The position numbers and the translations under genes were made by a program. Below the pieces are notes generated by a model. That model did no database searches and was not told the DNA's origin. It saw only the letters and a list, made by a program, of their open reading frames with translations. This document shows, one piece after another, positions 2,425 through 62,927 of a stretch of 64,000 bases of DNA (within the stretch, counting starts at the first letter, position 1; each line of letters starts with the position of its first letter). The stretch comes from Octopus sinensis (lineage: Eukaryota): the NCBI RefSeq assembly GCF_006345805.1, contig NC_043010.1:23932001-23996000 (forward strand), given 5' to 3'.

Positions 2425-2455
<31 letters not shown>

Positions 2456-3087: not shown

Positions 3088-3504
3088 ATGATTTCGTTTC
3101 TGGTTCAATCCTACACGAGACAGCCGAAATCTATGAAAAGTCTCTTAACACAAGCCCGAATACGCTCAACAACACAGAAGCCGTCAGTAAAAATATGTGG
3201 AAGACCCTATTGTGGGATATGCGATTATCTAATTGAGGGGTCAGAGTTCTCCTTCAAACAGGGACAACGTTTCACAGTGAAAAGCAACTTCACATGTGTT
3301 TCGGAGAACCTGATATACACACCAACCTGCTCTGGCTGTCAAGAGCAATACATAGGCCAAACTAAAAATAGTCTAAGTAAAAGAATGGCTCTGCACAGAT
3401 GCCAGGTTAAAATTCCCCAAAACAGAAAAATAGCATTCAGCCAACACATCAATATTTGTTCCAACAACAAAAATCCAAGCTTCAGAATTTTTCCCCTCTA
3501 CTAA
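3088..3504 (+). pseudogene. PLE GIY-YIG endonuclease fragment (second tandem copy; element extends to ~4310)
   Basis: CGRPYCGIC linker then FTCVSENLIYTPTCSGCQEQYIGQTKNSLSKRMALHR...FSQH, the PLE GIY-YIG signature (LIY..C..C...YIGQT....R..H). No RT upstream. Confidence 0.9.
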
Positions 3505-4309: not shown

Positions 4310-4377
<68 letters not shown>

Positions 4378-5214
4378 CATACATACATATATATATACGC
4401 ATATATACACACACATACACACACACACGCACACACACACACACACACCACACACACACACATACACATATATATATATATATATATATAGATATATATA
4501 TATATACATACATATTGTATGTGTGTTGTTTAAACGCTTATTTACTGCGTGGAGTGTCCGGGGAAAGCTCCTATACGACGCCGAGTGTTAAAGAACACCG
4601 AATATCCAGGTCAATAAGTGATAATTCATTCCAAAGTGACCAAGAATGGTAGATACCGATATTTCGTCATTATTGTGAATTATCAATATCATTCACATGG
4701 ATCACTTCAAAACAGAATGAATGGCTGTTTTGAGACTTATTTGCACATAGAATGAAGTCTATGTGCTATCTTTCAGCAAATAGACGTTTAAATTCGTTGA
4801 TCAAAAACCGACGTAGGTGTTCGCCGCAGTTAGTCCCTACAATTATAAAATTCCAGTATTAAGCCGAACTTTTACACACGCGCGCGCTCGCGCACGTATG
4901 TATACTGTAAGTGCGAATGTGTGTACACACTGGCCAATTTTAGCTCTTTTAGTTTTAAGTCATTTTTGTTTTATGTTTTGTATGTTGTTTTCTTTGCTTT
5001 CTAAATAACAGTTTATTGGTGGCGATTCGTTTGAATTCTTTATCAAATATTTCCTACAAGAAAGAATAGGAATTGCGACAAGGAAAAACGTAGCAAAAGA
5101 CCAAACAATACCGAAATGTTTTGTCAAAATACCTAAATACAGAAACAGATATTTCTCTTATTTTTCCCTTTTCGTTATTACTTTTGTCTTAGTGGCGTAT
5201 TTTCTTCTCGACCA

Positions 5215-5890
<676 letters not shown>

Positions 5891-6192
5891 ATGATCTCGT
5901 TCGTTAAATATAAATGTTTCTTTCTGGAAAGATCGATACTAGAACTGATAGCTAATCACGAAGACGGGAGAGAGAAGGAGGAGAAAGACGACATAAAAAG
6001 TGAAGGAATTAGTAATAGAAAATAATTTATAATAAAATACAACTAACAATAAAAATAAATAACTTTTGGCTTTAAAAAATAAATGTAACGATATTGAAAA
6101 CTCTTAGATGAAATTTCTATTCATATGAAGAGATCGATACCATCGAATACAATAAAGATAGAAAAGAAAAATTTAAACTCAGAATCAAAATG

Positions 6193-11415: not shown

Positions 11416-12242
11416 ACATACATACATACATACATACATACACTCACACATACATACATACACACACACATACATACATACACACCCACATACACACGCA
11501 CACGCATACACACACATACATACACAAGACATACATACATACAGACATACACCCATACACTCACACACACATACACACCCACATACACACGCATATATAT
11601 ACACACACACACGCATACATACATACATACATTACGCCCACACAACTCCAGAGGAAACCCCACGCACACACGCATACAGTCACACACACACACACATACG
11701 TACACACACATACATACATACATACATACATACATACATACTTTCATTCGTACATACCACATACATACACACACACAAACATACACATACACACACACAT
11801 ACATACATACACACATACATATACACATACATATATACACACGCACACACACATACATACACACACACATACACACATACATACATACACACGCATATAC
11901 GCACATACAATATACATACACACATGCATACACACACATGTATACACACACATGCATACACACACACATACATACGCACATGCATGCATACATACATACA
12001 CACACACACATACACACATACACGCATGTACACTTACATACATGCATACATACATACACACAAACATACACGCATGCACACATACATACATACACACATA
12101 CACACACACATACATACATACATACACACACATACATACATACACGCACACACGCATACACATACACAAATACACACACATACTTACATACACTCATACG
12201 GACATACATACACACAGACATACACACCTACACACTCACACA
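11040..12242. repeat. Compound (AT)n/(CATA)n/(CA)n microsatellite
   Basis: Direct reading. Source of many spurious ORFs. Confidence 0.95.
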
Positions 12243-12244
12243 TA

Positions 12245-13469
12245 CGAGGGGCGTTCAATAAGTAATGCCCCTGACCCACTTGCAGTTGTTTGATCTAGTT
12301 GTTTGATTTTGCATGAGCACTTATTTATCCCTCTATAGATTAAGTGGTGAATTACAGCTCTGAACTAATTGTGGTTTCTGATTTACAGGTGTTTGAACTG
12401 AGTCAAGTGTGAAATGGAGCCTGTTGTATTTGAAAGGACGCATACCACGGGAGACTTTTGATGAAATGAAAGTAACTTATGGTGATGATGCCCCATCATA
12501 TGACCTTGTAAAAGGCTGGCATTGTAAATTCAAACATGGTCGGAACTCTGTGGAAACAGCTCCCAGATCTGGTCGCCCCCTTCTGCCGTTGATGAGACAT
12601 CTGTCCGTCAAGTTGAGGCTGCCATTTTTGGAAGGTCAACGCATAACTATTCGCCAAATAGCCCATGAGGTCAAGATTAGTACCGGGTCTGTGGAAACTA
12701 TCATTCATGACCATTTGCATATGCAAAAGGTGTCTGCCAGATGGATTTCCAGGTTGCTCACACCTTTCCAGAAGCAAGAACGCGTTGAGTGCTCGAGGGT
12801 GAATTTGGAGATGTGCCAAGAAGATGAGTCAAAATTTTTCAAAAGACTGATCACACAGGATAAAATTGGGTCCATCACTATGATCCATAGACCAAAGCCC
12901 AGTCAATGCAGTGAACGCACCGTGACTCACCTCCTCCAAAGAAGGCAAGGGTGCAGCCCTCCGCTGACAAGGTTATGCTCATAGTCTTCTGGGACCAGGA
13001 CGGAGTAGTGATGACAGATTTCCTGGCAAAGGGTAGCACAATTGCAGGAGCCTTCACTTTTGAGGAAATTAAGAGAAGCTATCAAAATCAAGAGGCGGGG
13101 CAAGATCAGCAAAGGCATCCTCCTCCTGCAGGACAAGGCTCCGGTCCACAACTCGCGTGTCGCCAGATCAGAAGCACAGGCGTGCAGCTATGAACTCCTC
13201 CCCTTGCACCCTCTTCCCAGCCATGAAGTTGATTTTGAAAGGAAAGCGTTTCCCAGATGATGCAGCCTTGATTTCTGAAGTCACGTCGTGGTTGGAGGAC
13301 CAAGCTGGGTTCTTCTACAAAAACGGTCTCCAGAGCTGTATCAAACGATGGTAGAAATGCATAACTCTGGGTGCTTCCTATGTAGGAAAAGACTAATAAC
13401 TGTGCCAAGTGTCGTTGCTCTACCGATATGGGAAGTGGGTCAGGGGCATTACTTACTGAACGCCCCTCG
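12245..13469 (+). mobile_element. Mariner (DD34D) DNA transposon, full length, defective
   Basis: TIRs cgaggggcgttcaataagtaatgcccctgacccactt / aagtgggtcaggggcattacttactgaacgcccctcg with TA on both sides. Transposase motifs KVSARWISRLLT, KVMLIVFWD, LLQDKAPVH lie in shifted frames. Confidence 0.95.
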
Positions 13470-13755
13470 TACATACATACATACATACACACACACATAC
13501 CTATATACACACTCGCATGCACACGCACACTCATGCATGCGCGCGCACGCACCCATACATACATGCATGCACGCATGCCTTTGGGGTCTGGCTTTATTTC
13601 GGGCGCGCGTCTGGGCGTGTGCGTGTGTGCCTGTAGTTTCGTATGCGCCCGCACCGTGATAGTCTTTTCCATCTATCTTTCAGTTGCGAAGTGTGTCCTT
13701 GCATGAATATATATACCACATGCAAACATATATATATATATATGTATATGTGTAT

Positions 13756-18097: not shown

Positions 18098-18371
18098 ATT
18101 CTATATTTAAGAGGTGAGGAATTATGTAAATTATTTACATTATTTACATTCAACGGATATTTGTCCTCATCTTGTTTCTTGTTAACACGACGATTCGGCA
18201 GATATACACTCCAGCCTTCTTCATGTGTCTTGGGGAAATTTCGAATCAGAATCCAGGTTCGAAATTTCCCCAAGACACCCGAATAAGGCTGGAGGGTATA
18301 TCAGCCGAAACGTTGTGTTAATAGCAAACAAGATGAGGACAAATATCCGTTGAATATAAATAATGTAAATA
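18098..18371. mobile_element. Palindromic (inverted pLTR) insertion with two degenerate hammerheads and 13-bp TSD
   Basis: ~18130-18245 is inverted at ~18258-18373. atagtttagctca is duplicated at 18085-18097 and 18372-18384. Each arm reads gacac NNGAANA a ggctg...c(a/t)gcc GAA(A/T) cgT(T/C) gtgtt. Confidence 0.8.
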
Positions 18372-18458
18372 ATAGTTTAGCTCATTAACAATTTGGTTAT
18401 TGTAATCTTAGATACAGTATTCTAAAAAGAAACGAGATGGCTGTGACAAGATAGCCCC

Positions 18459-20460: not shown

Positions 20461-20521
<61 letters not shown>

Positions 20522-20522
<1 letters not shown>

Positions 20523-21814
20523 GAGGGGCGTTCAATAAGTAATGCCCCTGACCCACTTCCCATTGCAGTAGAGCAACGAAACTTGGCACAGTTATTAGTC
20601 TTTTTCTACATAGGAAGCACCCAGAGTTACGCATTTCTCCCATCGTTTGATGCGGCTCTGGAGACCGTTTTTGTAGAAGGACCCAGCTTGGTCCTCCAAC
20701 CTCAACGTGACTTCAGAAATCAAGGCTGCATCATCTGGGAAACGCTTTCCTTTCAAAAACAACTTCATGATTGGGAAGAGGTGAAAATCAGAGGGTGTAA
20801 GGTCGGGAAAGTATGGGGGATGGGGAGGAGTTCATAGCCATACGCCTGTGCTTCTGATCTGGCGACAAGCGAGTTGTGGACCGGAGCCTTGTCCTGCAGG
20901 AGGAGGATGCCTTTGCTGATCTTGCCCCGCCTCTTGATTTTGATAACTTCTCTTAATTTCCTCAAAAGTGAAGCATAATAGGCTCCTGCAATTGTGGTAC
21001 CCTTTGCCAGGAAATCTGGCATCACTACTCCGTCCTGGTCCCAGAAGACTGTGAGCATGACCTTGCCAGTGGAGGGCTGCACCCTTGCCTTCTTTGGAGG
21101 GGGTGAGTCACGGTGCTTCCACTGCATTAACTGGGATTTGGTCTCTGGATCATAGTGATGGACCCAGGTTTCATCCTGTGTAATCAGTCTTTTGAAAAAT
21201 TTTGACTCATCTTCTTGGCACATCTCCAAATTCACCCTCGAGCACTCAACGCGTTCTTGCTTCTGGAAAGGCGTGGGCAACCTGGGAATCCATCTGGCAG
21301 ACACCTTTTGCATATGCAAATGGTCATGAATGATAGTTTCCACAGACCCGGTACTAATCTTGACCTCATAGGCTATTTGGTAAATAATTATGCGTCGATC
21401 TTCCAAAATGGCAGCCTCAACTTGACGGACAGATGCCTCATCAATGGCAGAAGGGGGCGACCAGATCTGGGAGCTGTTTCCACAGAGTTCCGACCATGTT
21501 TGAATTCACGATGCCAGCGTTTTACAAGGTCATATGATGGGGCATCATCACCATAAGTTACTTTCATTTCATCAAAAGTCTCCCGTGGTGTGCGTCCTTT
21601 CAAATACAAAAACCGGATCACTGCTCGACACTCAACAGGCTCCATTTCACACTTGACTCGGTTCAAACACCTGTAAATCAGAAACCACAATTAATTCAGA
21701 GCTGTAATTTGCCACTTACTCTATAGAGATATCAATGATTACACATGCAAAATCAAACAACTAGATCAAACAACTGCAAGTGCGTCAGAGGCATTACTTA
21801 TTGAACGTCCCTCG
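20522..21814 (-). mobile_element. Mariner (DD34D) DNA transposon, full length, defective; same family as 12245
   Basis: Same TIRs with TA flanks. ORFs 21388-21690 (HTH region) and 20765-21406 with WIPRL, TQDETWVHHYDPETK, GKVMLTVFWD, QDKAPVH. The YSPDL region is frameshifted. Confidence 0.95.
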
Positions 21815-21931
21815 TATATATATAAATTTAAATAATAACGGTGAGAAATTGAATATTTATTTGATTAATATCAATTTTAAACCAGTGGCTTAGCATATTG
21901 AAGACTCTGAAGATTCAGAAAAATTATATTA

Positions 21932-22205
21932 CATACATATAAGTGGGATGACCACTAAGTGGACATCTATTATCCTAGATGTAGATCCCATATGGTCTGA
22001 CCTCTAAGAAAAGATTGTTCTCAAGAAAATTCAGCAAATGCCAGAACGCAAGCGAGCAAGACAAATGAAAAGATGCAAAATATAGTTGCCCATTGGTCTG
22101 CTGAACTTTCTTCAGAACCATCTTTTCTTAGAGGTCAGACCATATGGGGGTCAACCTCTAGTATAATGGATGTCCACTTAGTAGTCATCCTTCTTATATG
22201 TACAT
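21932..22205. mobile_element. Fold-back/MITE-like element
   Basis: ~21932-22036 is inverted at ~22100-22205 (gatgaccactaagtggacatc...catatggtctgacctctaagaaaagat). Confidence 0.7.
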
Positions 22206-27244: not shown

Positions 27245-27663
27245 AAAAATGCAATAGAGGACAATAAAACCGCAGGATGGATATGCGATACAAAGGCGGA
27301 CAGGAACAACAAGAATTAGAGGGACAGGAAAAAGAAGAACGGGTCATTCGTGGCCTTCTTTCGTCAGTCGAGTTACCAGACGTTGGGCACATTTTTGGTT
27401 GCCCTCCCCCCCCCCGCCCAGTCTAAGCTAAGAGCATTGGATATTTTTTGTAAGAAAACCAGCGAATGTGTGTGACACCAAAGACCAGATCGAACAATCT
27501 CAAGTGTAATTGCCCGAAACTAAAGATATCTGGTAACTTGATTGACGAAAGAAGGCTGCGAATGACCCATCCTTTGTTTCCTGTCCCTCTAATTGCTGTT
27601 TTTCCTGTCTGCCTTTATGTCGCCTATCGATCCGGATGTTTTATTGTCCTCCATTGCGTTTTT
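27245..27663. mobile_element. Fold-back element with ~140-bp inverted arms
   Basis: 27245-27384 is inverted at 27526-27663. Each arm carries (C/T)TGACGA aagaaggc...cgaatgaccc. Confidence 0.75.
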
Positions 27664-28840: not shown

Positions 28841-31811
28841 TCAAACGCGTCCACCACACACATTCTTTGCCATAGCCATCAACGTAACGAAAACAGTTTT
28901 CCCTTCCCGTTTAAAGGAAGGTGGTGGAACAATATTCACGATAGACTCGGCCGATAGGCGGGCCCGATCTACACGTGACAACAGCTGTTCGACGAAGGTC
29001 CACAGGTCTGAAATATCTGGACACTGCACGAGTGCGTGCAGAACGGTTTCGTCGCTCTGACCGCATCTCGGGCAGGTCAGTCCGGTGATGGTTTTCGAAC
29101 CGTGCCTGTAGCTCTTCTCTCGAACAGGTTGTGCGTCTCGATAGCACTGCCAAGCCAGGGATGTCTGGAAGTTATCCATAGGCCCCGGCCCGAACGTCGT
29201 CCTGAACAGGCGGGTTAGGAATTTCTCGTCGACGCCCAGGTTTGCCCCGAGTGTGTCGTCGGACCTCCCCTCCACTAGTCCTCTATAGAACGCTTTAGTC
29301 GTTTGTAAGTTGCACAAGTTTGACCCCGGTCGGCAGAGCTGTTGTAGAGCTTGGCAACACTCTCGGTGCCAATCGCCCAGTTTCGGTCGCTTTTTGATCC
29401 ACGTTTGCAGTTCGGTCAGTGAGACGAGCTGCGGGAAGGCGTGCCTCACAAACGGCGCCCACACCTGTTCACCGTCGTCGACGAAGTTCCAGAGATGTCG
29501 CAGTCTCAGCGTATGCCTGCGCATCATCAACTACGGCATGCCCAGTCCTCCATTCAACGGATGTTGACAGCAAATGGACTTCCTCACCATCGGAACGCCA
29601 CCCTTCCACAGGAAGCGGAAGTGTATGCGTTCCAGTTTGGTGATGGTGGCGTCGGGACAAGGTACGACGGTCAGGCGGTAATCGATGACGGATGCGATGT
29701 ACGCGTTCGCCACCTCCGCCCGGCCTTTTAGAGACAGCTTTCTCTCGGCCCATGTTTGGCTGAGAGCGACCACTCTACTCGTGATCTCGTCCCAGTTCTT
29801 ATCCATTTGGAGGTCCGGACTGAACCAGACCCCGAGCAATTTAACCGGTCCATCCGTCCAGCGTCCCACTACTGAGCCGCAGTCGGACGGCATGAGCTTG
29901 CTTCTCCAGGTGCCGAGTAGCAAACCCACTGACTTTTCCGGGTTAATCTTTGCTCCCGTCACCGTTTCGTATTTTCTTAGTGTCTCGCCTATCATCTGGA
30001 TGTGTTTGTCGCTCGACACTATGACGGTGACATCGTCCGCATATGCCGACACGCTCGTCCCGCAACCCAGTTCTCGTTGGATGCCCCTCAGTGTCGCCAG
30101 CTTCCGCAGTAGCGGCTCGAGAGTCAATACATACAGAAGCGCCGACAGGGGACACCCCTGACGGACCGAACGCGTGATGTCAAACGGTTTCGACAGGTGA
30201 CCGTTCACCCGAATCACCGATCAGATGCCGCTATACAAGGCAGCGATCCAACCGCGGAAGACGGGACCGAAGCCAGCCGCCCTGAGAACGGCCGCCAAGT
30301 ACCGATGGTCGACCCTATCGAAGGCTTTAGACTGATCCAAATTTATCAGCGCCCCACCCATGCCAGGATCCTTAACTACTCTGACCACAATGTAGCGCAT
30401 CAGATGGAGGTTGTCATGTATGGTTCTGCCCGGCACGGCGCATGTTTGCGCCCTGTCGACCAGTTTACCAATGACAAGCGCCAACCTCTCGGCTATTACT
30501 TTGGCCAAAATTTTCAAATCTGCGTTGAGCAGAGTGATGGGCCTGAAATTATCTATAAAATTCCCCTTGTTTGGGTCTTTCTTCAGCAACGTCACTGCAC
30601 CTCGGCTCACGAAACCGGGGATTCTCCCGTTTTGTTGCCAGTTGCAGTAGACTGTTGATCTATTAGAGACCGAATGGTGGCTCTGTTGCCACGCTGCGCC
30701 TCCGCTACCCGGGCCTCTCGCGCAGCTTCGATCCCTTCGTTCCTTAAGCACGCATTTTAGCTCTGACGACGCAACCTTCGTGTTTGACGTTGAGGTGTTG
30801 GTCGAGGGCCATCCTCGCAGCCAGCACGTTGGTTGCGCTGCCAGTGGTAAGTGCCTCTTCTAGTTTCTTAACCAAGTCTCCCTCTACTCTATTTCATTCT
30901 ATCGCTAATTCCTTGCTAAACCTAATTGATTCCGATTTTATTGCCATTTTCGGGGCGAACCACCAGCGGTTGTTAACGACGGCTCCCGTCAGCGCCCTCT
31001 TAATTAACTCGCTAATCCGGTTCCTGTAAACCTGTCGCGCTAAGAGCGACGTGTTCAGTTTCCAGTAACCGGGACCCTGTCTATGTGTTTTATCTAAGTC
31101 GAGCGTACACGTCACAAATTTGTGATCTGTGTAGCTGACTATTTTAAATTGTGGACATCCTACACTATCCCTATCCGCTGTCCTGCATAGAATTCTATCT
31201 AGATAAGATCTCGACAATCCGACGCGGTTTGTCCAAGTCCACGTTGGCACGTTCGGATGGTCGAGTCGGAACCTGTCAGACAAATGGAAACGTCTGAGCA
31301 GGTCTTTGGGGCTCTTACACCCCCTTCTATTCCTATCCATTCCCACATAATCTAGATGCGTGTCCAAGGCAGCGTTCCAATCCCCTACTAACAGTAAAGG
31401 TCTAGACGTACCCAGGAAAACCTCTAGACGTCTGAAGAAATCCGCCCGATCCGTTAAGGACGGTGCATAAACTGCCATCAGACGGATTGCACACCCATTT
31501 CTGCCATCCACGTCCAAGACAACCAGCCTACCCTCCGGGTCTAGGAATATTGCTCTTACTTTTACATTTAGACTCTTTCGAAAAAGCACTGCGGTACCTC
31601 CACCACCCATGTTCGGCAGACAGGGAGAAAAATAAATGTCAAATTGATTGCCAAACATGGACTCGAGGGGCGGCGGCTTACTGAGTCTGGTTTCACTGAT
31701 AGCTACTATATCCACGTTCAGTGACTTGATGTCGTTTAGAAGGTAACCTTGCTTCCAAGCCGACGCCAAGCCACGCGCATTCACACAACCTAATTTAAGC
31801 ATACTTGACAT
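28841..31811 (-). pseudogene. Tx1/L1 ORF2 (APE endonuclease + RT + zinc finger), disrupted
   Basis: NARGL, ISET, GDWNA, SYLDRI, TDH, GYWKLN; NFRPITLLNADLKI, DQSKAFDRVDH, VRQGCPLS, YADD; CPRCGQSDETVLHALVQC. Confidence 0.93.
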
Positions 31812-38806: not shown

Positions 38807-38860
<54 letters not shown>

Positions 38861-38863
38861 AAT

Positions 38864-39637
38864 TTATATATAGAGGGCATTATACATACATGCCAGGAGG
38901 CATTCTACATACACGCCATACGCTAAGAGGGACAATCAGTCATTTCTACCAAAAATATTACTAATCCCACCGAATGCAATTTTTCAAAGAAAGACATTTA
39001 AAAATATATAGACCTGTATCACAGTGATTTCATATACTTACGTAATCATCAGCAGGCCTGAATATACTATAAATAACAACGACCCTGCTTCGCTTAAGCC
39101 GATCAGCTAACTGATCAACATCAACGAAGCACATGGGTGAATTTATATTACTATATCCGGATGAATGGCAAACTTTTACGAATTGCATTTCGGGAGAGGA
39201 AAAGTTTTTTCGGAATAAAAATTTAGCAATTAAGGACAACTACTTAATAAGGAAAACTTAACAAGAAATTGTCAGTAGATAGCGTAAAAACCTCATAAGA
39301 GAAAAAATTTCGAAAATAATTATTTCTTATTGAACATATTAAATTATATATAGAGGGCATTATACATACATTCCAGGAGGCATTCTACATACACGCCATA
39401 CGCTAAGAGGGACAATCAGTCATTTCTACCAAAAATATTACTAATCCCACCGAATGCAATTCGGTGTATAATGCCCTCTATATATAATGTATGTATAATG
39501 CCCTCTATATATAAATTAATATGTTCAATAAGAAATAATTATTTTCGAAATTTTTTCTCTTATGAGGTTTTTACGCTATCTACCTGACAATTTCTTGTTA
39601 AGTTTTCCTTATTAAGTAGTTGTCCTTAATTGCTAAA
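38864..39637 (-). mobile_element. Retrozyme-like/pLTR unit: 480-nt period with 118-nt redundancy plus inverted arm
   Basis: 38864-38981 is repeated at 39344-39461. 39221-39371 is inverted at ~39487-39637. Hammerhead at 39011-39058. Confidence 0.75.
39011..39058 (-). ncRNA. Type I hammerhead ribozyme motif
   Basis: ggcctg CTGATGA t-tac-gtaa-gta-tat GAAA tca-ctg-tg ATA caggtc: 6-bp stem I with one G-U, intact core, AUA triplet, weak stem II. Confidence 0.7.
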
Positions 39638-39656
39638 TATATATATATATATATAT

Positions 39657-40462
39657 GAGTCATCCCATAAATAATGCGCTTTTTTCATTTGCATGAACTA
39701 AAAGTCGGAGGAAAACGGAATAGACTACCTGCATCAACCTGCTATAAAAGCAGGTAGTCATTTTACTTTGTCTCTATTCTTAGCGCAGGTTTTGAAGAGT
39801 GAAGTTCGATTTTAACGGTTTCGACATATTTTGCTCTGGTGAGTTCAATAGAGGCAACGACGGAGAGTGCGAGAAATATTAATGCAGTATATGGGTATCG
39901 GACGATAAGCGTAAGCCAGTGTCAACAACGGTTCCAGAAATTCCTAGCCGGAAACTACAACCTAGAAGACGAGCCCCGTCTTGGAAGATCTTTAGAACTC
40001 GACGAGGACATCCTGCAAACCCTGGTGAAATAAAATTCCATCGTAACTGTTGAGGAATTAGCAGAGGAACTTGGATTTGGTCATTCAATCATGCATCGAC
40101 ACCAGCCCAAGAAGAAAAGCGACCGTCTTTACTTTCAAGACGAAAGGTATTCTTCCCGCAGAATAATGCTCGGCCACATACTGTGAGGATGACATTCCAA
40201 GGGCTGGACAAGTTTGTATGGGAAACTATGCCCCACCCACCATATTCGCCGGACATTGCCCCATATGATAATCATTTATTCTGCAGTCTTGAAAATGATT
40301 TGGACGGAAAAATATGAATTCTATAGACGAGGTCAGAAGAGTCCTGGATGAGTATTTTTCGTCATGGAGAAGTGAATTTTGGAAGAGTGATCTTGAAAAT
40401 TTACCAGATTGATGGAAAAGCATTGTAGAAAATGAAGGAGAAAAAATCCAAATTAATAAAAG
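39657..40462 (+). mobile_element. Internally deleted mariner of a different family
   Basis: HTH region (FQKFLAGNYNLEDEPRLGR), then QNNARPH and PHPPYSPDIAPYD-like motifs at ~40160-40280. The 3' TIR was not found. Confidence 0.8.
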
Positions 40463-43212: not shown

Positions 43213-43289
43213 TGTGTGTGTGTGTGTGTGTGGTGTGTGTGTGTGTGTGTGTGTGTAAGGGTGAAAAGGAACACACGAGTTGATATATA

Positions 43290-44103
43290 TGAAAAAACAA
43301 GTCAAAATAGAAAATGCTAAAATAATTTTATAAAGAACATTTCAGTTCCGGTTTCGGTCATTTTGAGACCTTTTCAACTGTAACGATTAAATAATTAAAT
43401 TTAGAAAAATTAAAAGAAAAGTTTTTTAAAGGAATATTTGTATAGTGTTCAAATATAAGTGGCATTCTGCCTTTCTCTGTCTCCCTTGTTTGCACTTGTG
43501 TGTTCGGGGCCGTTGTGAATTCTTGGTAGGGTAGAAGAAGAAGAAGGTTGATGAGGAGAGGGGGTGGAAACATTTGGGAGTGCCTTGATGGTCGTATTTT
43601 GAATGGTCAGTGGCGGCTAGTAGTTGCAGTTCAATTCAGGAGAATATTTCTATTGAAAGGTTTCTTTATGGAATTTGCGTAGGTGTTATACTAAAAAGCA
43701 TTAGTGATAAAGTTAAGAGGTGGAGAAGAAGAAAAAGAAGAAGAAGAAGAAGAAGAAGATGACGATGTTGATGATGATGATGATGATGAAGAAGAAGGAG
43801 AAGGAGAAGAAGAAGATGATGATGATGGTGATGATGATGACGACGATGATGATGATAATGATGATGATGAAGAAGAATTCACAACGGCCTCGAACACACA
43901 AGTGCAAACAAGGGAGACGGAGAAAGGCAGAATGCCACTTATATTTGAACACTATACAAATATTCCTTGAAAAAAACTTTTCTTTTAATTTTTCTAAATT
44001 TAATTATTTAATCGTTACAGTTGAAAAGGTCTCAAAATGACCGAAACCGGTACTGAAATGTTCTTTATAAAATTATTTTAGCATTTTCTATTTTGACTTG
44101 TTT

Positions 44104-44110
<7 letters not shown>
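43290..44110 (-). mobile_element. PLE 3' fragment with inverted pLTR (same family as 1088-2290)
   Basis: 43290-43525 is inverted at 43875-44110. 43570-43740 is the reverse complement of the 3' UTR at ~1830-1985. Each arm has the degenerate hammerhead cag TTGAAAA ggtc..gacc GAAA ccgG(T/A)A ctg. Confidence 0.85.
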
Positions 44111-44155
<45 letters not shown>

Positions 44156-48927: not shown

Positions 48928-49410
48928 AGCATAGGCTAAAACTAAGTAGACGATTGAATCCGTAAATTTTCCCTCCAAAATTCTGCCATGCGTACTACCG
49001 GGATAGTCGTAAGGGAGTGAAAAATCCAATTAGTAATATAATAATAAGGGTAAGTAATTTTTTCGATGATTTTTTTAGACAACCAACAATTATTTACCGG
49101 TAGATTTCGGTATGTAAACATGACCTTAGCGGCGGGAACTTCTGTGGAGTTCAGTATATATAGTATATAAATAAAAGGGCAGGCAACAGGTTGCTCTGCT
49201 GCATACCGAAAGAATTAGAAATAGCAGTCGCCGCTAAAGGTCATATTTACATACCGAAATCTGAAAAACCATCGAAAAAATTATTTACCCTTATTATTAT
49301 ATTACTAATTGGATTTTTCACTCCCTTACGACTATCCCGGTAGTACGCATGGCAGAATTTTGGAGGGAAAATTTACGGATTCAATCGTCTACATAGCTTT
49401 AGCCTATGCT
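48928..49410. mobile_element. Fold-back element related to 1-507
   Basis: 48928-49068 is inverted at 49270-49410, with inner arms at 49102-49133 and 49229-49262. Centre 49167-49228 matches the reverse complement of ~440-503. Confidence 0.8.
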
Positions 49411-50269: not shown

Positions 50270-52740
<2,471 letters not shown>

Positions 52741-53602: not shown

Positions 53603-53604
53603 GA

Positions 53605-56600
53605 TTTTTTTTTCTTTTCTTCTTTCAAATTTGCTTCCATTTCTTGCCGAGTGTCTTCCCGACTCCTAGGGCAGAGAAACTCATAGTATACATTGGTAGG
53701 CCATTAAACCAAACTCACTAGTTCGTTCATTTTTTTTTTAAGTTAATTTAAAATACATGGGAAGTAATAATTCTCACATCGACAATGCTCTCCTCAATAC
53801 GTGTGATGTACCAGTTAAAACAATCTTTTGCACTTCTTGCAGGGATGGTAAGCCAGGGATCATTCTCATATAATTTTCGATTCCCTTCTTGATCATTCCT
53901 AGTGCTCCTACGATCACTGGTATTGTAACCGCCTTGAGATGCCACATTTTCTCAATTTCGATGAGCAGGTCTTTATATTTTCTGAGCTTGTCAAACTCTT
54001 TCGCCGAGATATTATGATCACAGGGGATGCTCATGTCGATCAATAAGCAAACTTTATTGTTTTGGTCTTTCACAACAATATCTGGTTTATTGGCTTTGAT
54101 GGTTCGGTCTGTATGTACTGGAAAGTCCCACAGAATCGTTACATTTTCTCCTTCAGTTACAGCTTCAGGGTGGTGATTATACCACTTGTCGGCAGTTTTG
54201 ATATTGTAATGCCGACTTATTAAGCCAGTGTAGATATTGGCCAACTCTGTCATGTCTTAATTTATACTCCACTGGTGCTAAGACTATACATCCAGAGATT
54301 AGGTGGTCCACTGTTTCAATCATGTCGTTGCAGAATCGGCATTTTGGGTCTGCTCCATTTTTCATTACATTGGCCTGGTAGTTCCGGGTTAATAGGCTTT
54401 GATCTTGAGCAGCCAGGATGAAACCATCGCTCTCTGCTTTTAGCCCTGAGCTCCGTAGCTACTGATGGGTTTGCTTCTGGTCAACATCAGCTTGTTTGCT
54501 GCGGACCACATATTTGCCGTGCAGAGGTTTCTCCTCCCACCTATCAGCCAATTGCTCATGCTCTTTTTTCATTGCCATTTTTTTCACCTTCTTTGCAACA
54601 ATAGTTGCCGTACTTCCCTTGGGTTGTTCAGTTTGGGTATCCTGCACGAGATCAATTGCAAATTTTTTGCTTTCCTTTATGATAGAATGAAGCTTCTTTC
54701 GTCTCTCGTGATTTTCCACGAGCTTTAGCATCCAGTCATTCGTTATTTCGAGATATTTGGCCAGTCCAATTGTGGCTGTTTTGTAAGCTAGTTCAAATTG
54801 GATCAGGCCTCGACCTCCTTGGGCTCTGGGAAGGTAAAGGCGATCTACGTCTGCCTTTGGGTGGTGCATCCTATTACAACTCAGCAGCTTGCGTATTTCT
54901 TATCTATATTCTTTACTTCACTCATATTCCAGTTCAACACATTGTAGCTATAAGTAACAACTGGAACTGCCAAGGAATTTATAGCTAACACCTTGTTACG
55001 TGCATTTAGTTCAGATCTCAGGACTGCACGAACTCTCCTATAACATTATTTCCTGATCTTCTCTTTCATGCTTGCATGCTGAATACCAGAGCCTTCATTT
55101 ATCCCTAATTATTTGTATGTTTGTTCTTTCTCAAGCTCTCTTATGACTGTGTCAACAGTTAACACGACTGAATTTGTCGTCTTCACTTTCCCTTTCTGGA
55201 AAGTGGCCTTGGCACACTTCTCAAGCCCAAACTCCATCCCGATGTCATCACTGAATGCTTCCACAGTGCGCAATAGGTCTTCAAATTCATTATCGTCTTT
55301 ACCATAGAGTTTTAAGTCATCCATATAAAATAGATGTCTTATTTTTTTATTGGCAATTTTATACCCATACCCTGTTCTGTTTAATTCACTTGTAAGGGAT
55401 ATTAGGGCTATGCAGAATATTAAATGTGAAAGTGAGTCACCTTGAAAAATTCCACAGTTGATGTTTATATTTTCTGAGGCAAGTACTCCATTAGAGTGGT
55501 ATAATTGGAGATTCGTATTCCACAACGACATATTGTGCTTCAGGAAGCTTGAAATCACAGGGGAAATTTTGAAGATGTCCAGCGATCTCAAGATCCATGG
55601 ATGCGGTATACTGTCGAAGGCCTTTTTATAGTCAATCCATGCGAAGCTGAAATTTCTGCGCTTGTTGTGACAGTTCTCAAGGATCATACGATTAATTAGC
55701 AGTTGATCTTTGCATCCGTATGAGCCTCGGCGGCACCCTTTTTGTTCAATGGAGAAAATATCGTTCTTCTCCATGAATGCATATGTTTTCTCCGCCAGGA
55801 TTGATGTTAGGATTTTATACGTGGTGGATAGACAGGTTATAGGCCGATAGTTTTTTGGAAGGTTGGTTTCGTTATTCTTTGGGAGTAGGTAAGTAATACC
55901 ACTTGCTAACCATTCAGGTGTTTTCTCTGGGTCTCTCATAATTCCATTGAGCAGCTGAACTAGCTTACCGTGTGCGCATATGGCAGTCTTTCAATTAAGC
56001 TTCGTGGCGGGCTATACTGTTCATCTGATTCTTCATTTCTTTTGTGTCTTATATTTATGTCATTTTCCGTTGCATGCTTGATCGCGCTTATTTCAATGTC
56101 TGTGAGTCTGTTATTTCTAAGGATATCCCTCCTCACATTTGCCAATTTGTTCTCGTCCAAATAGGGCCTAATGTCTTGATTCCGTGTTCTCCATATACTG
56201 TAAGAGTTTGCGGTGTGTCTCTGTTGAGATGGCCTACCTAATGCATAGTAATAAGCGTATATTACTTCTTTATACTCTTCTCGTGTCCATTTGTTCCGCT
56301 TACATTTTTCTTTCTGTGGTGGTTGTGGTGATGAACTTGGAGGGCTCGAGTTGGGGAATTTCCCGTTCAAGTGACCATCCATGTCCGTATTCGGAGAAGA
56401 GTTTGTTCCAGTTGATGACTTTTCGATCCCAGGCTGGCTCTTCCCTGGGGGACGCGCTTCCAGATTAACCATAGGACAAGCGATTTGGTATACCGATTTA
56501 GTTTTCCTTTTAGTTTCCAAAAACATTTTGGTGCTACGATAATGTTATCATTTTTGAGCTTTGATTGGCTCGTGGGGAGACGGCCATCATTGCCGTTACA

Positions 56601-57038
56601 ATTATAATCGTACCATTAGAGCAGCCGTAGTCGGCTTATTATTGTTATTATCATCACTATTATTATCACTATTATCCTTATCACCACTATTACTATCATC
56701 ATTTTCATCATCACCAACACCAACACCATCATCATCATCATCATCATCATCAATGATATTGTTTTATGTGTAGTCACAGCAGTATCTTATTGTTTTTTTG
56801 TTTTTTTATTTTGTTGTTTTTTATCATTATCACCATCACAGTAGTGTCTGTCTGTCTCCTTGGCTGGCTGGGTAGTTGGCTGGCTGGCTGTCATCAACGC
56901 CAGAATTCTTGCCTGTCAAATACTTTCATATTTAATACTTTCATATTTGATTAATATCTAAAGAGCCGAGGTGAGGTTTGTGTTGGCTGAACTCTGTGAG
57001 TGTGTGTGTGTGTGTGTGTGTGTACGTGTGTGTAGATA
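53605..57038 (-). mobile_element. R4/Dong-clade RLE non-LTR retrotransposon, copy 1, defective with ~0.94 kb internal deletion
   Basis: NYRPITCL, QKGC, IDYKKAFDSIPH, IFQGDSLS, YMDDLK; CRFC..ETVDHLISGC, RHD, KPDIV..D...KY restriction-like endonuclease. A-rich tail at 53605. Deletion junction near 55980. Confidence 0.93.
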
Positions 57039-57206
57039 GATAGATAGATTATCAGCACTATTACTATCATTATTATCAACATCGCCATCATCATCATCAC
57101 CATCAGCACCATCATCATCTGTGATATTTTTTTCTTCTTTAGGTGGGGTCATATCGGTCAAAAAAAGTTTAAATGTCTACTCCTACTAGCCTTAAGAAAA
57201 ATTATG

Positions 57207-58100
57207 GAAGGTCTGTTCTGTATTGTTTGTGAATAGAGAAGTTGTGTTCGACCTGAGAGAATCTTAGCATCATTATTTTTTTTTCCATGTGCGTTTGTGT
57301 TATTGCAATAAAAAGTGTTTGTATATTTCGTGTAAGGTAATATTGTGGAGGTTGAAGTTGACTTTTCTAGAGATGTTTGTATGTCCAGTTAGAAGAACAG
57401 GTGTGTTTTTGCAAGAAAAAGTATATGTTTACATTTATATTTGAATTTTCAGGGAGGAAGCAAAGGAAAGTCAGATTTTCATAGAAAGTTTTAAGGTTTT
57501 GTAAGACCACAAAAAGAAAAGCGTGATGTTTTTAGAGAGAAGAAAAAAAAGGATGTTTAGAGACAATTCTGGGTATTCAAGTTTTTAAAGCTGATCGAAT
57601 GTATGTTTGAAAACTGTAGATATGTAAATTTGTAAATTTCTTAACTTATTTTGAAGGGCTGTTCTGTATTATTTGTGAATAGAGAAGTTGTGTTCGACCA
57701 GAGAGAATCTTAGCATCATTATTTTTTTCCATGTGCGTTTGTGTTATTGCAATAAAAAGTGTTTGTATATTTCGTGTAAGGTAATATTGTGGAGGTTCAA
57801 GTTGACTTTTCTAGAGATGTCTGTATGTCCAGTTAGAAGAACAGGTGTATTTTTGCAATAAAAAGTATGTTTACATTTATATTTGAATATTCAGGGAGGA
57901 AGCAAAGAAAAGTCAGATTTTCATAGAAAGTTTTAAGGTTTTGTAAGTCCACAAAAAGAAAAGCGTGATGTTTTTAGAGAGAAGAAAAAAAAGGATGTTT
58001 ACAGAGACAATTCTGGGTATAAAAGTTTTTAAAGCTGATCGAATGTATGTTTGAAAACTGTAGATATGTAAATTTGTAAATTTCTTAACTTATTTTGAAG
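57207..58100. repeat. Tandem duplication, ~446-bp unit x2
   Basis: ctgttctgtatt.tttgtgaatagagaagttgtgttcgacc starts at 57213 and 57659; both copies end ...cttattttgaag. Confidence 0.9.
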
Positions 58101-58271
58101 AGAACTTTAAATACTCACAAGATATTGTAGATGTTCCAGTCATTGAGGGTTATTTTTCCCCGTTGCTAAACTGGGTCATATTAGTGTTTCTATGGCTTTC
58201 GGCTACTGAATTGTCAGGGCAGTGAGGAATACGTCCAGCCGCTGTCAAGGCTGGCGCTCCTCTCCATATAA

Positions 58272-61200
58272 TTTTTTTTTCTTCTTCTTTCAAATTTGCT
58301 TCCATTTCTTGCCGAGTGTCTTCCCGACTCCTAGGGGAAAGAAACTCATAGTATACATTGGTGGGCCATTAAACTAAACTCAATAGTTCGTTCATTTTAA
58401 AAATTTTTTTTAAAGTTAAATTAAAATACATGGGTAGTAATAGTTCTCACATCGACAATGCTCTTCTCAATACGTGTGATGTACCAGTTAAGACAATCTT
58501 TTGCACTTCTTGCAGGGATGGTAAGCCAGGGATCATTCTCATATAATTTTCGGTTCTCTTCTTGATCATTCCTAGTGCTCCTACGATCACTGGTATTGTA
58601 ACCGCCTTGAGATGCCACATTTCCTCAATTTCAATGAGCAGGTCTTTATATTTTCTGAGCTTGTCAAACTCTTTCGCCGAGATATTATGATCACAGGGGA
58701 TGCTCATGTCGATCAATAAGCAAACTTTATTGTTTTGGTCTTTCACAACAATATCTGGTTTATTGGCTTTGATGGTTCGGTCTGTATGTACTGGAAAGTC
58801 CCACAGAATCGTTACATTTTCTCCTTCAGTTACAGCTTCAGGGTGGTGATTATACCACTTGTCGGCAGTTTTGATATTGTAATGCCGACTTATTAAGCCA
58901 GTGTAGATATTGGCCAACTCTGTCATGTCTTAATTTATACTCCACTGGTGCTAAGACTATACATCCAGAGATTAGGTGGTCCACTGTTTCAATCATGTCG
59001 TTGCAGAATCGGCATTTTGGGTCTGCTCCATTTTTCATTACATTGGCCTGGTAGTTCCGGGTTAATAGGCTTTGATCTTGAGCAGCCAGGATGAAACCTT
59101 CGCTCTCTGCTTTTAGCCCTGAGCTCCGTAGCTACTGATGGGTTTGCTTCTGGTCAACATCAGCTTGTTTGCTGCGGACCACATATTTGCCGTGCAGAGG
59201 TTTCTCCTCCCACCTATCAGCCAATTGCTCGTGCTCTTTTTTCATTGCCATTTTTTTCACCTTCTTTGCAACAATAGTTGCCGTACTTCCCTCGGGTTGT
59301 TCAGTTTGGGTATCCTGCACGAGATCAATTGCAAATTTTTTGATTTCCTTTATGATAGAATGAAGCTTCTTTCGTCTCTCGTGATTTTCCACGAGCTTTA
59401 GCATCCAGTCATTCGTTATTTCGAGATATTTGGCCAGTCCAATTGTGGCTGTTTTGTAAGCTAGTTCAAATTGGATCAGGCCTCGACCTCCTTGGGCTCT
59501 GGGAAGGTAAAGGCGATCTACGTCTGCCTTTGGGTGGTGCATCCTATTACAACTCAGCAGCTTGCGTATTTTCCTATCTATTTTCTTTACTTCACTCATA
59601 TTCCAGTTCAACACATTGTAGCTATAAGTAACAACTGGAACTGCCAAGGAATTTATAGCTAACACCTTGTTACGTGCATTTAGTTCAGATCTCAGGACTG
59701 CACGAACTCTCCTATAACATTATTTCCTGATCTTCTCTTTCATGCTTGCATGCTGAATACCAGAGCCTTCATTTATCCCTAATTATTTGTATGTTTGTTC
59801 TTTCTCAAGCTCTCTTATGACTGTGTCAACAGCTAACACGACTGAATTTGTCTTCACTTTCCCTTTCTGGAAAGTTGCCTTGGCACACTTCTCAAGCCCA
59901 AACTCCATCCCGATGTTATCGCTGAATGCTTTCACAGTGCGCAATAGGCCTTCAAGTTCATTATTGTCTTTACCATAGAGTTTTAAGTCATCCATATAAA
60001 ATAGATGTCTTATTTTTTTATTGGCAATTTTATACATCTATATTTTCTGAGGCAAGTTCTCCATTAGAGTGGTATAATTGGAGGTGGAGGCGCAATGGCC
60101 CAGCGGTTAGGGCAGCGGAATAGCGGTCATAGGATCGCGGTTTCGATTCCCAGACCGGGCGTTGTGAGTGTTTATTGAGCGAAAACACCTAAAGCTCCAC
60201 GAGGCTCCGGCAGGGGGTGGTGGTGATCTCTGCTGTACTCTTTCACCACAACTTTCTCTCACTCTTACTTCCTGTTTCTGTTGTACATGTATTTCAAAGG
60301 GCCGGCCTTGTCACTCTCTGTGTCACGCTGAATATCCCCGAGTACTACGTTAAGGGTACACGTGTCTGTGGAGTGCTCAGCCACTTACACTTTAATTTCA
60401 CGAGCAGGCTGTTCCGTTGATTCGGATCAACCGGAACCCTCGTCGTCGTAACCGACGGAGAGCTTCCAATCCATAATTGGAGATTCGTATTCCACAACGA
60501 CATATTGTGCTTCAGGAAGCTTGAAATCACATGGGAAATTTTGAAGATGTCCAGCGATCTCAAGATCCATGGATGCGGTATACTGTCGAAGGCCTTTTTA
60601 TAGTCAATCGATGCGGAGCTGAAATTTCTGCGCTTGTTGTGACAGTTCTCAAGGATCATACGATTAATTAGCAGTTGATCTTTGCATCCGTATGATCCTC
60701 GGCGGCACCCTTTTTGTTAAATGGGGAAAATATCGTTCTTCTCCATGAATGCATATCTTTTCTCCGCCAGGATAGATGTTAGGATTTTATACGTGGTGGA
60801 TAGACAGGTTATAGGCCGATAGTTTTTGGGAAGGTTGGTTTCGTTATTCTTTGGGAGTAGGTAAGTAATACCACTTGCTAACCATTCAAGTGTTTTCTTT
60901 GGGTCTCTCATAATTCCATTGAGCAGCTGAACTAGCTTACCGTGTGCGCATGGGAGCGATGCGAGCCAGAAATTGGGCACCCTATCTTTTCCGGGGGATT
61001 TCCAATTATGGGCCTTCGTGAGTGCCCTTCTTAGGTCTGCTATTGTGATGTCTTCCCATGCTTGTTGTTGTAAATTTTGGTAGGATCCTTCAGTTTGTAT
61101 AATCCAGTCTGCATTTGTGATGTACGTCTTCTTGTCACTCCAAATCCTTTTCCAAAAGTTTTGAACTTCTTCCATGGGAGGGGGGTCTTTAACGGTTACT

Positions 61201-62927
61201 TTCTTCTTCCGTATTTCTCTGTAGAATTTTTTAGCATTGGATGTGAACAGCTTATTTCGCTTGTAAAACTTGTTTCTCTTCTCAAATCTTCGTATTCTTT
61301 GGGCTTTTGCTTGGACTTTTTGTTTCAGTGTTTCTTTTATTGATATCAGTTCTTCTCTTGGTGAGGATTCAAATTTTCTCTTCATCTTTCTTCCTGTTCT
61401 GGATCTTACATCATTTCCACATATTAGTTCATTTAATATTGATATTTCCCCTCTCATAAATTCAATTTCTTTTTCAATTTTACTTCTCCAGGTTTGGTTT
61501 CCTCCCAGGTTTGGTTTTCTTTGTTTTTTCGGGGGCATACAGCTGGTTTCAATTGCCCTAGCAGAAGCGTAAATAATTTCATTTAACTCAGTAAAATCAG
61601 GTTTTAATTCTTGTATTATTTCCTTTGTTACATAGTTGCCAATTTGGATTTGTTCTTTATTTTGGTTTGTATTTGAGAGTTTATGAAGTGGTTCTCTATC
61701 ATTCATACTTGTATGTCTTACAATTTCAAGCGTATTCAGGATTTTCTGCCTCATTTCTTGCATATACTCCCTGTGTTCTTCAGCAAAAGCGAGATCTTCA
61801 GTTACTGTTGTTTTATCATTTTCCTGGCTATCTTTAACAGGTTCAATAGAATTTCTTGTATCTTCAGGCCTTTGCGTACTTTGGTCAGATGGCAGTCTTT
61901 CAATTAAGCTTCGTGGCGGGCTATACTGTTCATCTGATTCTTCATTTCTTTTGTGTCTTATATTTATGTCATTTTCCGTTGCATGCTTGATCACGCTTAT
62001 TTCAATGTCTGTGAGTCTGTTATTTCTAAGGATATCCTTCCTCACATTTGCCAATTTGTTCTCGTCCAAATAGGGCCTAATGTCTTGATTCCGTGTTCTC
62101 CATATACTGTAAGAGTTTGCGGTGTGTCTCTGTTGAGATGGCCTACCTAATACATAGTAATAAGCGTATATTACTTCTTTATACTCTTCTCGTGTCCATT
62201 TGTTCCACTTACATTTTTCTTTCTGTGGTGGTTGTGGTGGTGAACTTGGAGGGCTCGAGTTGGGGAATTTCCCGTTCAAGTGACCATCCATGTCCGTATT
62301 CGGAGAAGAGTTTGTGCCAGTTGATGACTTTTCGATCCCAGGCTGGCTCTTCCCTGGGGGACGCACTTCCAGATTAACCATAGGACAAGCGATTTGGTAT
62401 ACTGATTTGGTTTTCCTTTTAGTTTCCAAAAACATTTTGGTGCTACGATAATATTATCATTTTTGAGCTTTGATTGGCTCGTGGGGAGACGGCCATCATT
62501 GCCGTTACAATTATAATCGTACTATTATAGCAGCCGTAGTCGGCTTATTATTGTTATTATCATCACCATTATTATCACTATTATCCTTATCACCACTATT
62601 ACTATCATCATTATCATCATCACCATCACCATCATCATCATCATCATCAATGATATTGTTTTATGTGTAGTCACAGCAGTATCTTATTGTTTTTTTTTTG
62701 TTTTTTTGTTTTTTTTTATCATTATCACCATCACAGTAGTGTCTGTCTGTCTCCTTGGCTGGCTGGGTGGTTGGCTGGGTGGTTGGCTGGGTGTTTGGCT
62801 GGCTGGCTGTCTTCAACGCCAGAATTCTTGCCTGTCAAATAATACTTTCATATTTGGTTAACATCTAAAGAGCCGAGGTGAGGTTTGTGTTGGCTGAACT
62901 CTGTGAGTGTGTGTGTTTGTGTAGATA
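58272..62927 (-). mobile_element. R4/Dong-clade RLE non-LTR retrotransposon, copy 2, near full length, defective
   Basis: 572-aa N-terminal ORF 60717-62435 (KSPGKDRVPNFW, NYRPITCL), then RT and RLE fragments as in copy 1. Carries a SINE insertion and a ~100-bp deletion near 60037. Confidence 0.95.
60084..60472 (+). mobile_element. tRNA-derived SINE inserted in the R4/Dong RT, 10-bp TSD
   Basis: A box TGGCCCAGCGG, B box GGTTTCGATTCC. ataattggag is duplicated at 60074-60083 and 60473-60482. Absent from copy 1. Confidence 0.93.

What the first reader, a model, noticed from the sequence alone, without database searches (positions are those of the whole stretch)
38864..39637. 480-nt hammerhead unit with 118-nt redundancy and a visible fold-back switch
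Seen: direct repeats 480 nt apart and an intact-core hammerhead. At the end of the second repeat there is a hairpin, caccgaat-gca-attcggtg (~39448-39466), then a 25-nt inverted piece and a 150-nt inverted arm. Inference: a record of reverse transcription past unit length followed by snap-back priming and template switches.
Basis: partly seen in the sequence, partly recalled or inferred. Interest (0 to 1): 0.7.

Follow-up and report, generated by a model that had tools for sequence, protein, structure and literature searches.

The report
Two-armed hammerhead retrozyme insertion
This is one copy of an abundant protein-free repeat with a hammerhead ribozyme motif (predicted to self-cut, not tested), sitting in a TA microsatellite as two head-to-head arms that were likely copied from RNA by a Penelope-type enzyme from both sides of a DNA break; it is a new member of a known class, useful mainly because its junction can test how such inverted ends form.

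Summary
In detail: a 118-nt repeat 480 nt apart, one type I hammerhead on the minus strand, an 8-bp hairpin, a 24-nt inverted piece and a 152-nt inverted arm, between two (TA)n runs. Short-read contigs show an abundant, apparently non-coding family, with 10 other forward-to-inverted junctions (short sides). Copying past unit length and a 5-nt snap-back are supported. [quoted passage not shown] Its outer end (39221-24) is where other copies start beside (AT)n (8 contigs, 1 of 4 runs), and the 24-nt piece begins at the first arm's start point. The two starts lie 121 nt apart, like a long Penelope 'tail'. The ribozyme core is intact, but stem II is imperfect in this copy and the fold is predicted to need a dimer. 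Cleavage, RNA circles and the partner enzyme are untested, and no contig bridged this copy's own junction. Verdict: a metazoan non-LTR retrozyme (non-autonomous Penelope passenger) with the known tandem-plus-inverted Penelope layout. This scan noted the same two-armed layout before on other DNA of this genome (about 479-491-nt units).

The parts
38834..38860 (.). left (TA)n run of the target microsatellite, preceded by (ATAC)n
   Evidence: sequence
38862..39461 (-). arm 1: 600 nt = one 480-nt unit plus 120 nt; RNA sense is the minus strand, so the plus strand is the inferred first cDNA, starting at point A (38862-65, equivalent to 39342-45, which contains TATATATA)
   Evidence: contigs of 4 of 4 runs begin or end at 39345-47 (table 8)
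38862..39341 (-). 480-nt unit, 33% GC, longest M-to-stop frame in arm 1 is 52 aa; structured when folded as a circle (-118 kcal/mol, z -4.8, 0 of 60 shuffles as low; plus strand z -4.0)
39010..39059 (-). type I hammerhead: stem I 7 bp plus extension, imperfect stem II with GUAA loop, palindromic stem III (4 bp with 3-nt loop as monomer, 5+5 bp as dimer), AUA triplet, cut predicted between 39017 and 39016
   Evidence: cleavage not tested
39221..39341 (-). 121-nt stretch between start points A and B, present at the outer end of arm 2 only (Penelope-like 'tail', inferred)
39448..39466 (+). snap-back hairpin at the end of arm 1: 3-bp natural stem extended by 5 templated nt
39465..39488 (+). 24-nt inverted piece (= 39343-39366); on the minus strand a 27-nt-spaced duplication of arm 2's end that restarts at point A; shares 2 nt with the hairpin and 1-3 nt with arm 2
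   Evidence: (D5)
39487..39638 (+). arm 2: 152-nt inverted copy of 39221-39371; outer end at point B with a 4-nt match (ATTT) to the flank
   Evidence: other copies begin at 39224 next to (AT)n
39637..39656 (.). right (TA)n run, followed directly by a mariner-like repeat (label by eye, not tested)

Best explanation
This is one insertion of an abundant 480-nt non-coding hammerhead repeat (a non-LTR retrozyme) that was likely copied from RNA by a borrowed Penelope-type reverse transcriptase/endonuclease, which likely primed cDNA from both sides of a break in a (TA)n run, after which the two cDNA ends were likely joined head to head. Steps: (1) shown: a 480-nt unit with one hammerhead motif, 1.25 units in arm 1, a 152-nt inverted arm 2, and (TA)n on both sides. 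(2) Inferred: the left DNA end primed at point A, helped by the TATATATA there, and ran 600 nt through an uncut hammerhead, so the template was a circle or an uncut tandem transcript (about even odds). (3) Inferred: the right DNA end primed at point B, 121 nt further 3' on the RNA, ran 151 nt, then restarted at point A for about 22 nt (the 24-nt piece). (4) Shown as sequence, inferred as event: the end of arm 1 folded on a 3-bp stem and was extended 5 nt, making a 2-nt overlap with the end of arm 2, as in synthesis-dependent microhomology joining; whether the RT or a host polymerase did this is open. (5) Predicted: the hammerhead works as a dimer in tandem source copies; this solo copy has one motif and would not release a unit-length RNA by itself.
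For: Family abundant in 4 of 4 DNA-type runs laid (1961-6015 contigs on 38862-39900, 3 organism labels, 3 studies); share of contigs running on into unlike sequence 0 in all 4, so no common coding body is attached (contigs are short). Forward-to-inverted junctions in other copies: 6 of 15 joints shown plus 1 in table 5c; 3 of 4 joints, 2 of them new; 1 loose end at 39322 (matched by eye to inverted 39056-39087): 10 distinct. Point B: 8 contigs of run X2 have an (AT)n loose end before 39224; a fold-back copy would stop within 3 nt of B about 1.4% of the time if stops were uniform. In 2 of the 7 junctions the inverted arm begins 37-38 nt beyond the end of the forward arm, which fold-back allows only if that arm exceeds one unit. 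Arm 2 has the family letter at 39343 and the extra G after 39274, where arm 1 differs. The homodimer fold gives the double-hammerhead layout at -25.1 kcal/mol against 2 x -9.8 for monomers. The purified Penelope-like protein of the anole cuts and extends both strands, prefers AT-rich DNA, starts inside the RNA at two sites that define the tail, and mostly uses uncut RNA (PMC11167929, parts 1-2 of 4). Snap-back and loop-out synthesis creating join microhomology: PMC5728401 (passages).
Against: The B-end evidence is from 1 of 4 runs among 22 loose-end rows shown (69 not shown). All junction contigs have only 21-29 letters on the shorter side, below the tool's 30-letter caution. No partner enzyme was found: the element has no similarity to Penelope-like copies elsewhere in the window and no genome is held. 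The 121-nt tail is three to four times the published 30-40 bp. Core conservation is not shown: none of the 13 core positions is among the variant sites, but with roughly 4% of unit positions listed as variable that is expected more often than not, and no covariation test was possible. As a monomer, stems II and III have pairing probability 0.01 or less. Only 1 of 9 predicted Xenopus retrozyme dimers cleaved in vitro (10.64898/2026.07.22.740005). Three letters private to arm 1 (after 39274, 39343, 39372) are unexplained; two sit exactly at junction edges (post hoc chance about 3e-5).
Confidence: 0.62

Rival explanations
1. Continuous fold-back: one cDNA of 600 nt snapped back, switched template twice on itself, copied 152 nt of its own strand and was joined to the right flank.
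For: The hairpin is real and templated. Arm 1 contains all the sequence of the piece and arm 2, so the geometry allows it. Palindromes at inverted Penelope junctions were interpreted as self-priming (PMC3846280, passages). If the private letters at 39343 and 39372 were present, the second switch has a 3-nt overlap.
Against: Arm 2 ends at B, where other copies start. The piece is bounded by A, which a DNA-templated copy has no reason to respect. Arm 2 lacks arm 1's letters at 39343 and after 39274, although these could have arisen after insertion.
Confidence: 0.2
2. Rearrangement after insertion: a plain tandem copy was broken later and repaired by polymerase-theta-type joining or replication template switching, giving hairpin, duplication and inverted arm without any role of reverse transcription.
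For: The junction has both SD-MMEJ signatures (inverted and direct repeat; PMC5728401). The two edge substitutions hint at hairpin-templated changes after insertion.
Against: Ten other inversion junctions in the family and several head-to-head inserts of other repeats in this window make the layout a feature of insertion; the outer end at B is not explained.
Confidence: 0.08
3. Assembly chimera: the inverted arm comes from a fold-back read or mis-join.
For: The assembly is the only source seen for this junction. Complex Penelope inserts are known to trouble assemblies (PMC8557442, passage).
Against: Arm 2 is not a mirror of arm 1 (2 differences, both family-type). It ends at a family start point and resumes in (TA)n. 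Independent short-read contigs show the same kind of junction in other copies.
Confidence: 0.06
4. The unit is only the terminal repeat of a coding Penelope-like element that happens to be tandem, not an independent non-autonomous family.
For: Vertebrate retrozymes are related to pLTRs (10.64898/2026.07.22.740005); truncated Penelope ends give the same layout.
Against: The unit returns to its own start after 480 nt without an ORF, and no laid contig class runs on into unlike sequence.
Confidence: 0.04

Closest known systems
Metazoan non-LTR retrozymes (Cervera and de la Pena 2020, PMC7229834: passages and Discussion read; Li, Clavereau and Pollet 2026, 10.64898/2026.07.22.740005: parts 1-3 of 5 read, supplements closed)
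   Same: Non-coding, low-GC unit of a few hundred nt with one type I hammerhead, tandem tendency, many copies, structured RNA; Penelope-like elements proposed as mobiliser.
   Different: 480 nt is longer than the 170-400 nt usually quoted (recalled) but within the 51-972 bp range of the 2026 survey. Inverted second arms and tails are not discussed there ('inverted' 0 times in PMC7229834; once, in a reference title, in the 2026 preprint; 'tail' 0 in the preprint). Neither paper mentions octopus. This copy has one hammerhead and so is a 'monomer derivative' by the 2026 definition.
Insertion units of endonuclease-bearing Penelope-like elements (PMC8557442, PMC3846280: passages; PMC11167929: parts 1-2 of 4)
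   Same: Partial tandem, adjacent inverted 5'-truncated copy, one-sided tail, palindrome at the inverted junction, (TA)n or AT-rich targets, type I hammerhead, two RT start sites.
   Different: No RT/GIY-YIG ORF. Tail of 121 nt rather than 30-40 bp. Hammerhead has fuller helices than the minimal pLTR type. An apparent restart at the first start site is seen in the junction.
Non-autonomous Chlamys elements such as MRC1 (PMC8557442, passage)
   Same: Non-coding passengers of Penelope-like elements with head-to-tail multicopy insertions.
   Different: Those share 3' sequence with a known autonomous family and that clade lacks canonical hammerheads; no partner was identified here.
LINE-1 twin priming and SD-MMEJ junctions (10.1101/2024.12.14.628481, PMC5728401: passages)
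   Same: Works like it: two cDNAs primed from opposite ends and joined; small-hairpin self-annealing and short templated duplications at the join.
   Different: L1 has a poly(A)-primed first arm and a second arm primed upstream on non-overlapping sequence (recalled); here both arms overlap in sequence and start at fixed points.

Membership tests
Type I hammerhead ribozyme | Conserved core CUGANGA / GAAA / UH | tested here: met
   all core letters present on the minus strand, AUA triplet
Type I hammerhead ribozyme | Three helices with helix I open-ended | tested here: inconclusive
   stem I probability 0.91 or more; stems II and III 0.01 or less as monomer, formed in the homodimer fold; stem II imperfect here, while family variants (2 nt shorter in about 30-50% of depth in 3 of 4 runs; A-U closing pair in 5-17%) give a regular 3-4 bp stem
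Type I hammerhead ribozyme | Match to a curated Rfam hammerhead model | tested here: not met
   no hammerhead family at gathering score or at E<=10; this lowers model membership, not the motif reading
Type I hammerhead ribozyme | Self-cleavage at the predicted site | not testable with these tools
   needs an in vitro assay
Type I hammerhead ribozyme | Covariation or selective conservation of the core | tested here: inconclusive
   no core position variable, but background variability is too low to make this significant; no alignment of full copies available
Metazoan non-LTR retrozyme | Non-coding unit of a few hundred nt, GC below 45% | tested here: met
   480 nt, GC 0.327, longest M-to-stop frame 52 aa
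Metazoan non-LTR retrozyme | Tandem organisation, with two or more hammerheads in active copies | tested here: inconclusive
   this copy is 1.25 units with one hammerhead; family contigs cross the unit junction but tail-bearing arms give the same; longer arrays are reported only in unchecked earlier notes
Metazoan non-LTR retrozyme | Dispersed, multi-copy family | tested here: met
   20 of 24 listed runs hold part of the stretch; thousands of contigs laid in 4 of 4 runs (summed depth is not a copy number)
Metazoan non-LTR retrozyme | Expressed as monomeric linear and circular RNA | not testable with these tools
   no holder on record as RNA; contigs cannot tell a circle from a tandem
Penelope-like element (autonomous) | ORF with RT and GIY-YIG endonuclease | tested here: not met
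   no ORF; it is at most a passenger
Penelope-type insertion footprint | Partial tandem plus adjacent inverted 5'-truncated copy | tested here: met
Penelope-type insertion footprint | One-sided tail of 30-40 bp between two start sites | tested here: inconclusive
   a one-sided extension is present but 121 nt long; recurrence of B shown in 1 of 4 runs
Penelope-type insertion footprint | AT-rich or (TA)n target; target-site duplication optional | tested here: met
   (TA)n on both sides; a duplication cannot be defined inside the microsatellite
Penelope-type insertion footprint | Sequence shared with an autonomous partner | tested here: inconclusive
   none in the 64-kb window; genome not held

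The most novel reading that the evidence does not exclude
A Penelope-type enzyme copies a 480-nt RNA circle from both ends of one DNA break, from two fixed start points 121 nt apart, and can restart at its own start point using a nascent cDNA end as primer; this junction preserves both starts, a restart and the snap-back join in one readable record of how Penelope inverted ends and retrozyme insertions are made.
Probability: 0.3. Interest if true: 0.65.

Novelty: new member of a known kind. Interest (0 to 1): 0.4.

Why it matters
How Penelope-like elements make their tandem and inverted ends is called undefined in the 2021 survey (PMC8557442), and mobilisation of animal retrozymes by Penelope enzymes is proposed but not shown (PMC7229834; 10.64898/2026.07.22.740005). 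A protein-free family that carries the Penelope footprint links the two questions. Its junctions allow a simple census that separates two-ended priming from fold-back, and circle from linear multimer. The class, the layout and the idea of self-priming are already in print, and one copy cannot settle the mechanism, so the value is moderate.

Tried and rejected
Whole-genome search: no genome held, so no census of copies and no partner search. Rfam: no hammerhead match; the microRNA hits are microsatellite noise. Metagenome pattern scan: 9 loci, all 48-60% GC, best similarity to the unit E 0.23, rejected as chance. Look-alike search in earlier findings by sequence and by relatives: 0 windows. This copy's own junction: no contig of X1, X4 or X10 covers 39469-39481, and none of the 32 pieces listed bridges it in any of 4 runs (3732 pieces not shown); the tool states that a hole proves nothing, so this counts neither way. 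The flanking (TA)n junctions were not testable (left run outside the stretches laid; right run skipped as a repeat). Expression: no RNA holder listed. Run X10, only guessed to be RNA, gave 19 contigs including a 337-nt one with 1 mismatch and 1 gap across the unit junction; not counted as transcription. An internal inverted repeat of the unit (39179-39195) as source of the letters after 39461: explains 2 of the 5 new letters, rejected in favour of the snap-back. A-to-I editing as source of the private letters: the two substitutions are not of that type in RNA sense. My first label 'minimal hammerhead' was dropped, because the helices are near canonical size. The shorter family form of stem II was not folded, so its stability is judged by eye only. 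Pfam found no family in 3 of 3 Penelope-like frames of the window. Literature: searches found no paper on cephalopod retrozymes or on two-ended priming of retrozymes; subscription papers and preprint supplements were not visible and may hold such cases.

Full report
Setting. The window is repeat-rich animal DNA with many microsatellites and broken retroelements. No genome is held for it. Earlier notes call the genome octopus-like; I did not test that.

Observation. All parts are present. The direct repeat is 118 nt with 1 mismatch at spacing 480. The hairpin 39448-39466 is a perfect 8-bp stem. The inverted piece is 24 nt and the inverted arm 152 nt. (TA)n runs of 27 and 20 nt flank the insert.

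Hammerhead. It lies on the minus strand with all core letters and an AUA triplet. My descriptor gave 2 hits in the window against 0.11 per shuffle. Rfam did not recognise it. Stem I is firm, but stems II and III do not form in the monomer model (probability 0.01 or less). Two copies folded together give the double-hammerhead layout through the palindromic stem III, at -25.1 against 2 x -9.8 kcal/mol. Dimer-dependent cleavage is the described behaviour of most metazoan type I hammerheads (PMC4209133, passages). Stem II of this copy has a U-U closing pair and two extra bases. Family contigs often lack those two bases (86072/282231, 157101/316218, 26060/55922 and 92/59092 of summed depth in X1-X4), and a minority have an A-U closing pair. 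No core position is listed as variable, but few positions are, so this is not evidence of selection. Cleavage is untested, and only 1 of 9 predicted dimers cleaved in the 2026 Xenopus test. The unit has no ORF over 52 aa and folds well as a circle (z -4.8; the plus strand also scores z -4.0).

Family. 20 of 24 listed runs hold part of the stretch. I laid 5 of them: X1-X4 on 38862-39900 and X1, X2, X4 and X10 on 39170-39530. Thousands of contigs fit in each DNA-type run, and the share running on into unlike sequence was 0, so no common coding body adjoins the unit as far as short contigs show. Of 15 joints shown, 6 jump from the forward part into the inverted arm and 9 are deletions in the right-hand repeat; table 5c adds a seventh. 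One search adds two new ones (3 of its 4 joints, one already seen) and one loose end that I matched by eye to inverted 39056-39087. That makes 10 distinct head-to-head junctions in other copies, at depths of 8.5-115 where a depth is given. Their shorter sides are only 21-29 letters, so each alone is weak. This copy's own junction was not bridged in any listed piece, which the tool says proves nothing.

Mechanism. With RNA on the minus strand, the plus strand is the first cDNA. It starts at point A in the left (TA)n, runs 600 nt and crosses the predicted cut site. A cut linear monomer allows 155 nt from A, so the template was a circle or an uncut tandem RNA. Arm 1 stops 36 nt short of the next cut site, so a linear RNA is not excluded. 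A solo hammerhead silent in a monomeric circle favours the circle; the cluster of three private letters in arm 1 favours non-identical units of a linear transcript. I put these at even odds.

The right side reads, on the minus strand: (AT)n, start at B (39221), 151 nt, restart at A for about 22 nt, then a 2-nt overlap with the snap-back end of arm 1. In run X2, 8 contigs begin at 39224 behind an (AT)n loose end (1 of 4 runs among 22 rows shown, 69 hidden). So B is a recurrent element end, and a fold-back copy would stop there only about 1.4% of the time under a uniform model. Contigs of all four runs also break at 39345-47, which fits A as a second recurrent end. Arm 2 has the family letter at both sites where it differs from arm 1. 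In 2 of 7 junctions the inverted arm begins beyond the forward end. [quoted passage not shown] This matches the anole Penelope-like protein, which cuts AT-rich DNA, extends both strands, starts at two internal RNA sites that define the tail and prefers uncut RNA (PMC11167929, parts 1-2 of 4). A hairpin plus a short direct duplication at a join are the two signatures of synthesis-dependent microhomology joining (PMC5728401, passages), so a host polymerase may have made the join.

Unexplained. The substitutions at 39343 and 39372 sit exactly at the edges of the 24-nt piece and of arm 2, and each extends the inverted match by one base (post hoc chance about 3e-5). Hairpin-templated correction after insertion, unlike template units or a polishing error are possible; none explains all three private letters.

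Comparison. The element fits metazoan non-LTR retrozymes in size, composition, motif and abundance; circular RNA and multi-hammerhead arrays were not testable here. Its layout is the described Penelope insertion unit: partial tandem, adjacent inverted truncated copy, one-sided tail (PMC8557442, passages), with palindromic junctions already ascribed to self-priming (PMC3846280, passages). It is not an autonomous Penelope-like element, and no partner was found in the window. The searches found no paper on cephalopod retrozymes or two-armed retrozyme inserts; preprint supplements were closed. This scan has noted two-armed hammerhead repeats of about 479-491 nt on other pieces of this genome; those notes are unchecked, and I could not confirm by sequence that they are the same family.

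Verdict. Real, and a new member of a known kind. Interest 0.4; the boldest reading (two-ended copying of a circle with a restart at the start site) has probability 0.3 and would merit 0.65.

Noticed in passing
window 697-5081: Partial tandem with a 2028-nt period (97.6% identity) and minimal hammerhead cores at 2197 and 4223 on the plus strand; the frame 3076-3504 looks GIY-YIG-like by eye but gave no Pfam hit. Probably a broken Penelope-like element.
   Followed up: partly
window 43277-44115: Head-to-head insert related to the 697-5081 element (80-85%): arms of about 530 and 243 nt, 98% complementary over 243 nt, both ending at about the same element end, joined in a (GAA/GAT)n stretch, right end in (TA)n. 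An in-window example of the ordinary Penelope layout.
   Followed up: partly
window 1-463, 18130-18373, 21934-22202, 27245-27663, 48928-49410, 51385-51468: Further short inverted-repeat inserts; some look like two-armed retroelement ends, others may be MITE-like.
   Followed up: no
window 9601 (-), 20246 (+), 37010 (-): Further hammerhead core motifs of the minimal type, unrelated in sequence to the 480-nt unit.
   Followed up: no
window 39657 to about 40480: Mariner-like decayed repeat (label by eye) directly after the right (TA)n run; other copies show many internal deletions ending near 39860-39877 (9 joints). A 166-nt contig of run X1 matches 39729-39894 exactly.
   Followed up: no
window 53604-62922 (-) and 29531-31811 (-): Two broken LINE-type elements with RVT_1 hits; the first is present as two 93-98% identical partial copies in tandem.
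   Followed up: no
window 12242-13507 and 20484-21817: Two copies (89%) of a mariner-type transposon; Transposase_1 hit in the second.
   Followed up: no
window 39274, 39343, 39372: Three letters private to arm 1; two lie exactly at junction edges and extend the inverted match. Unexplained.
   Followed up: partly
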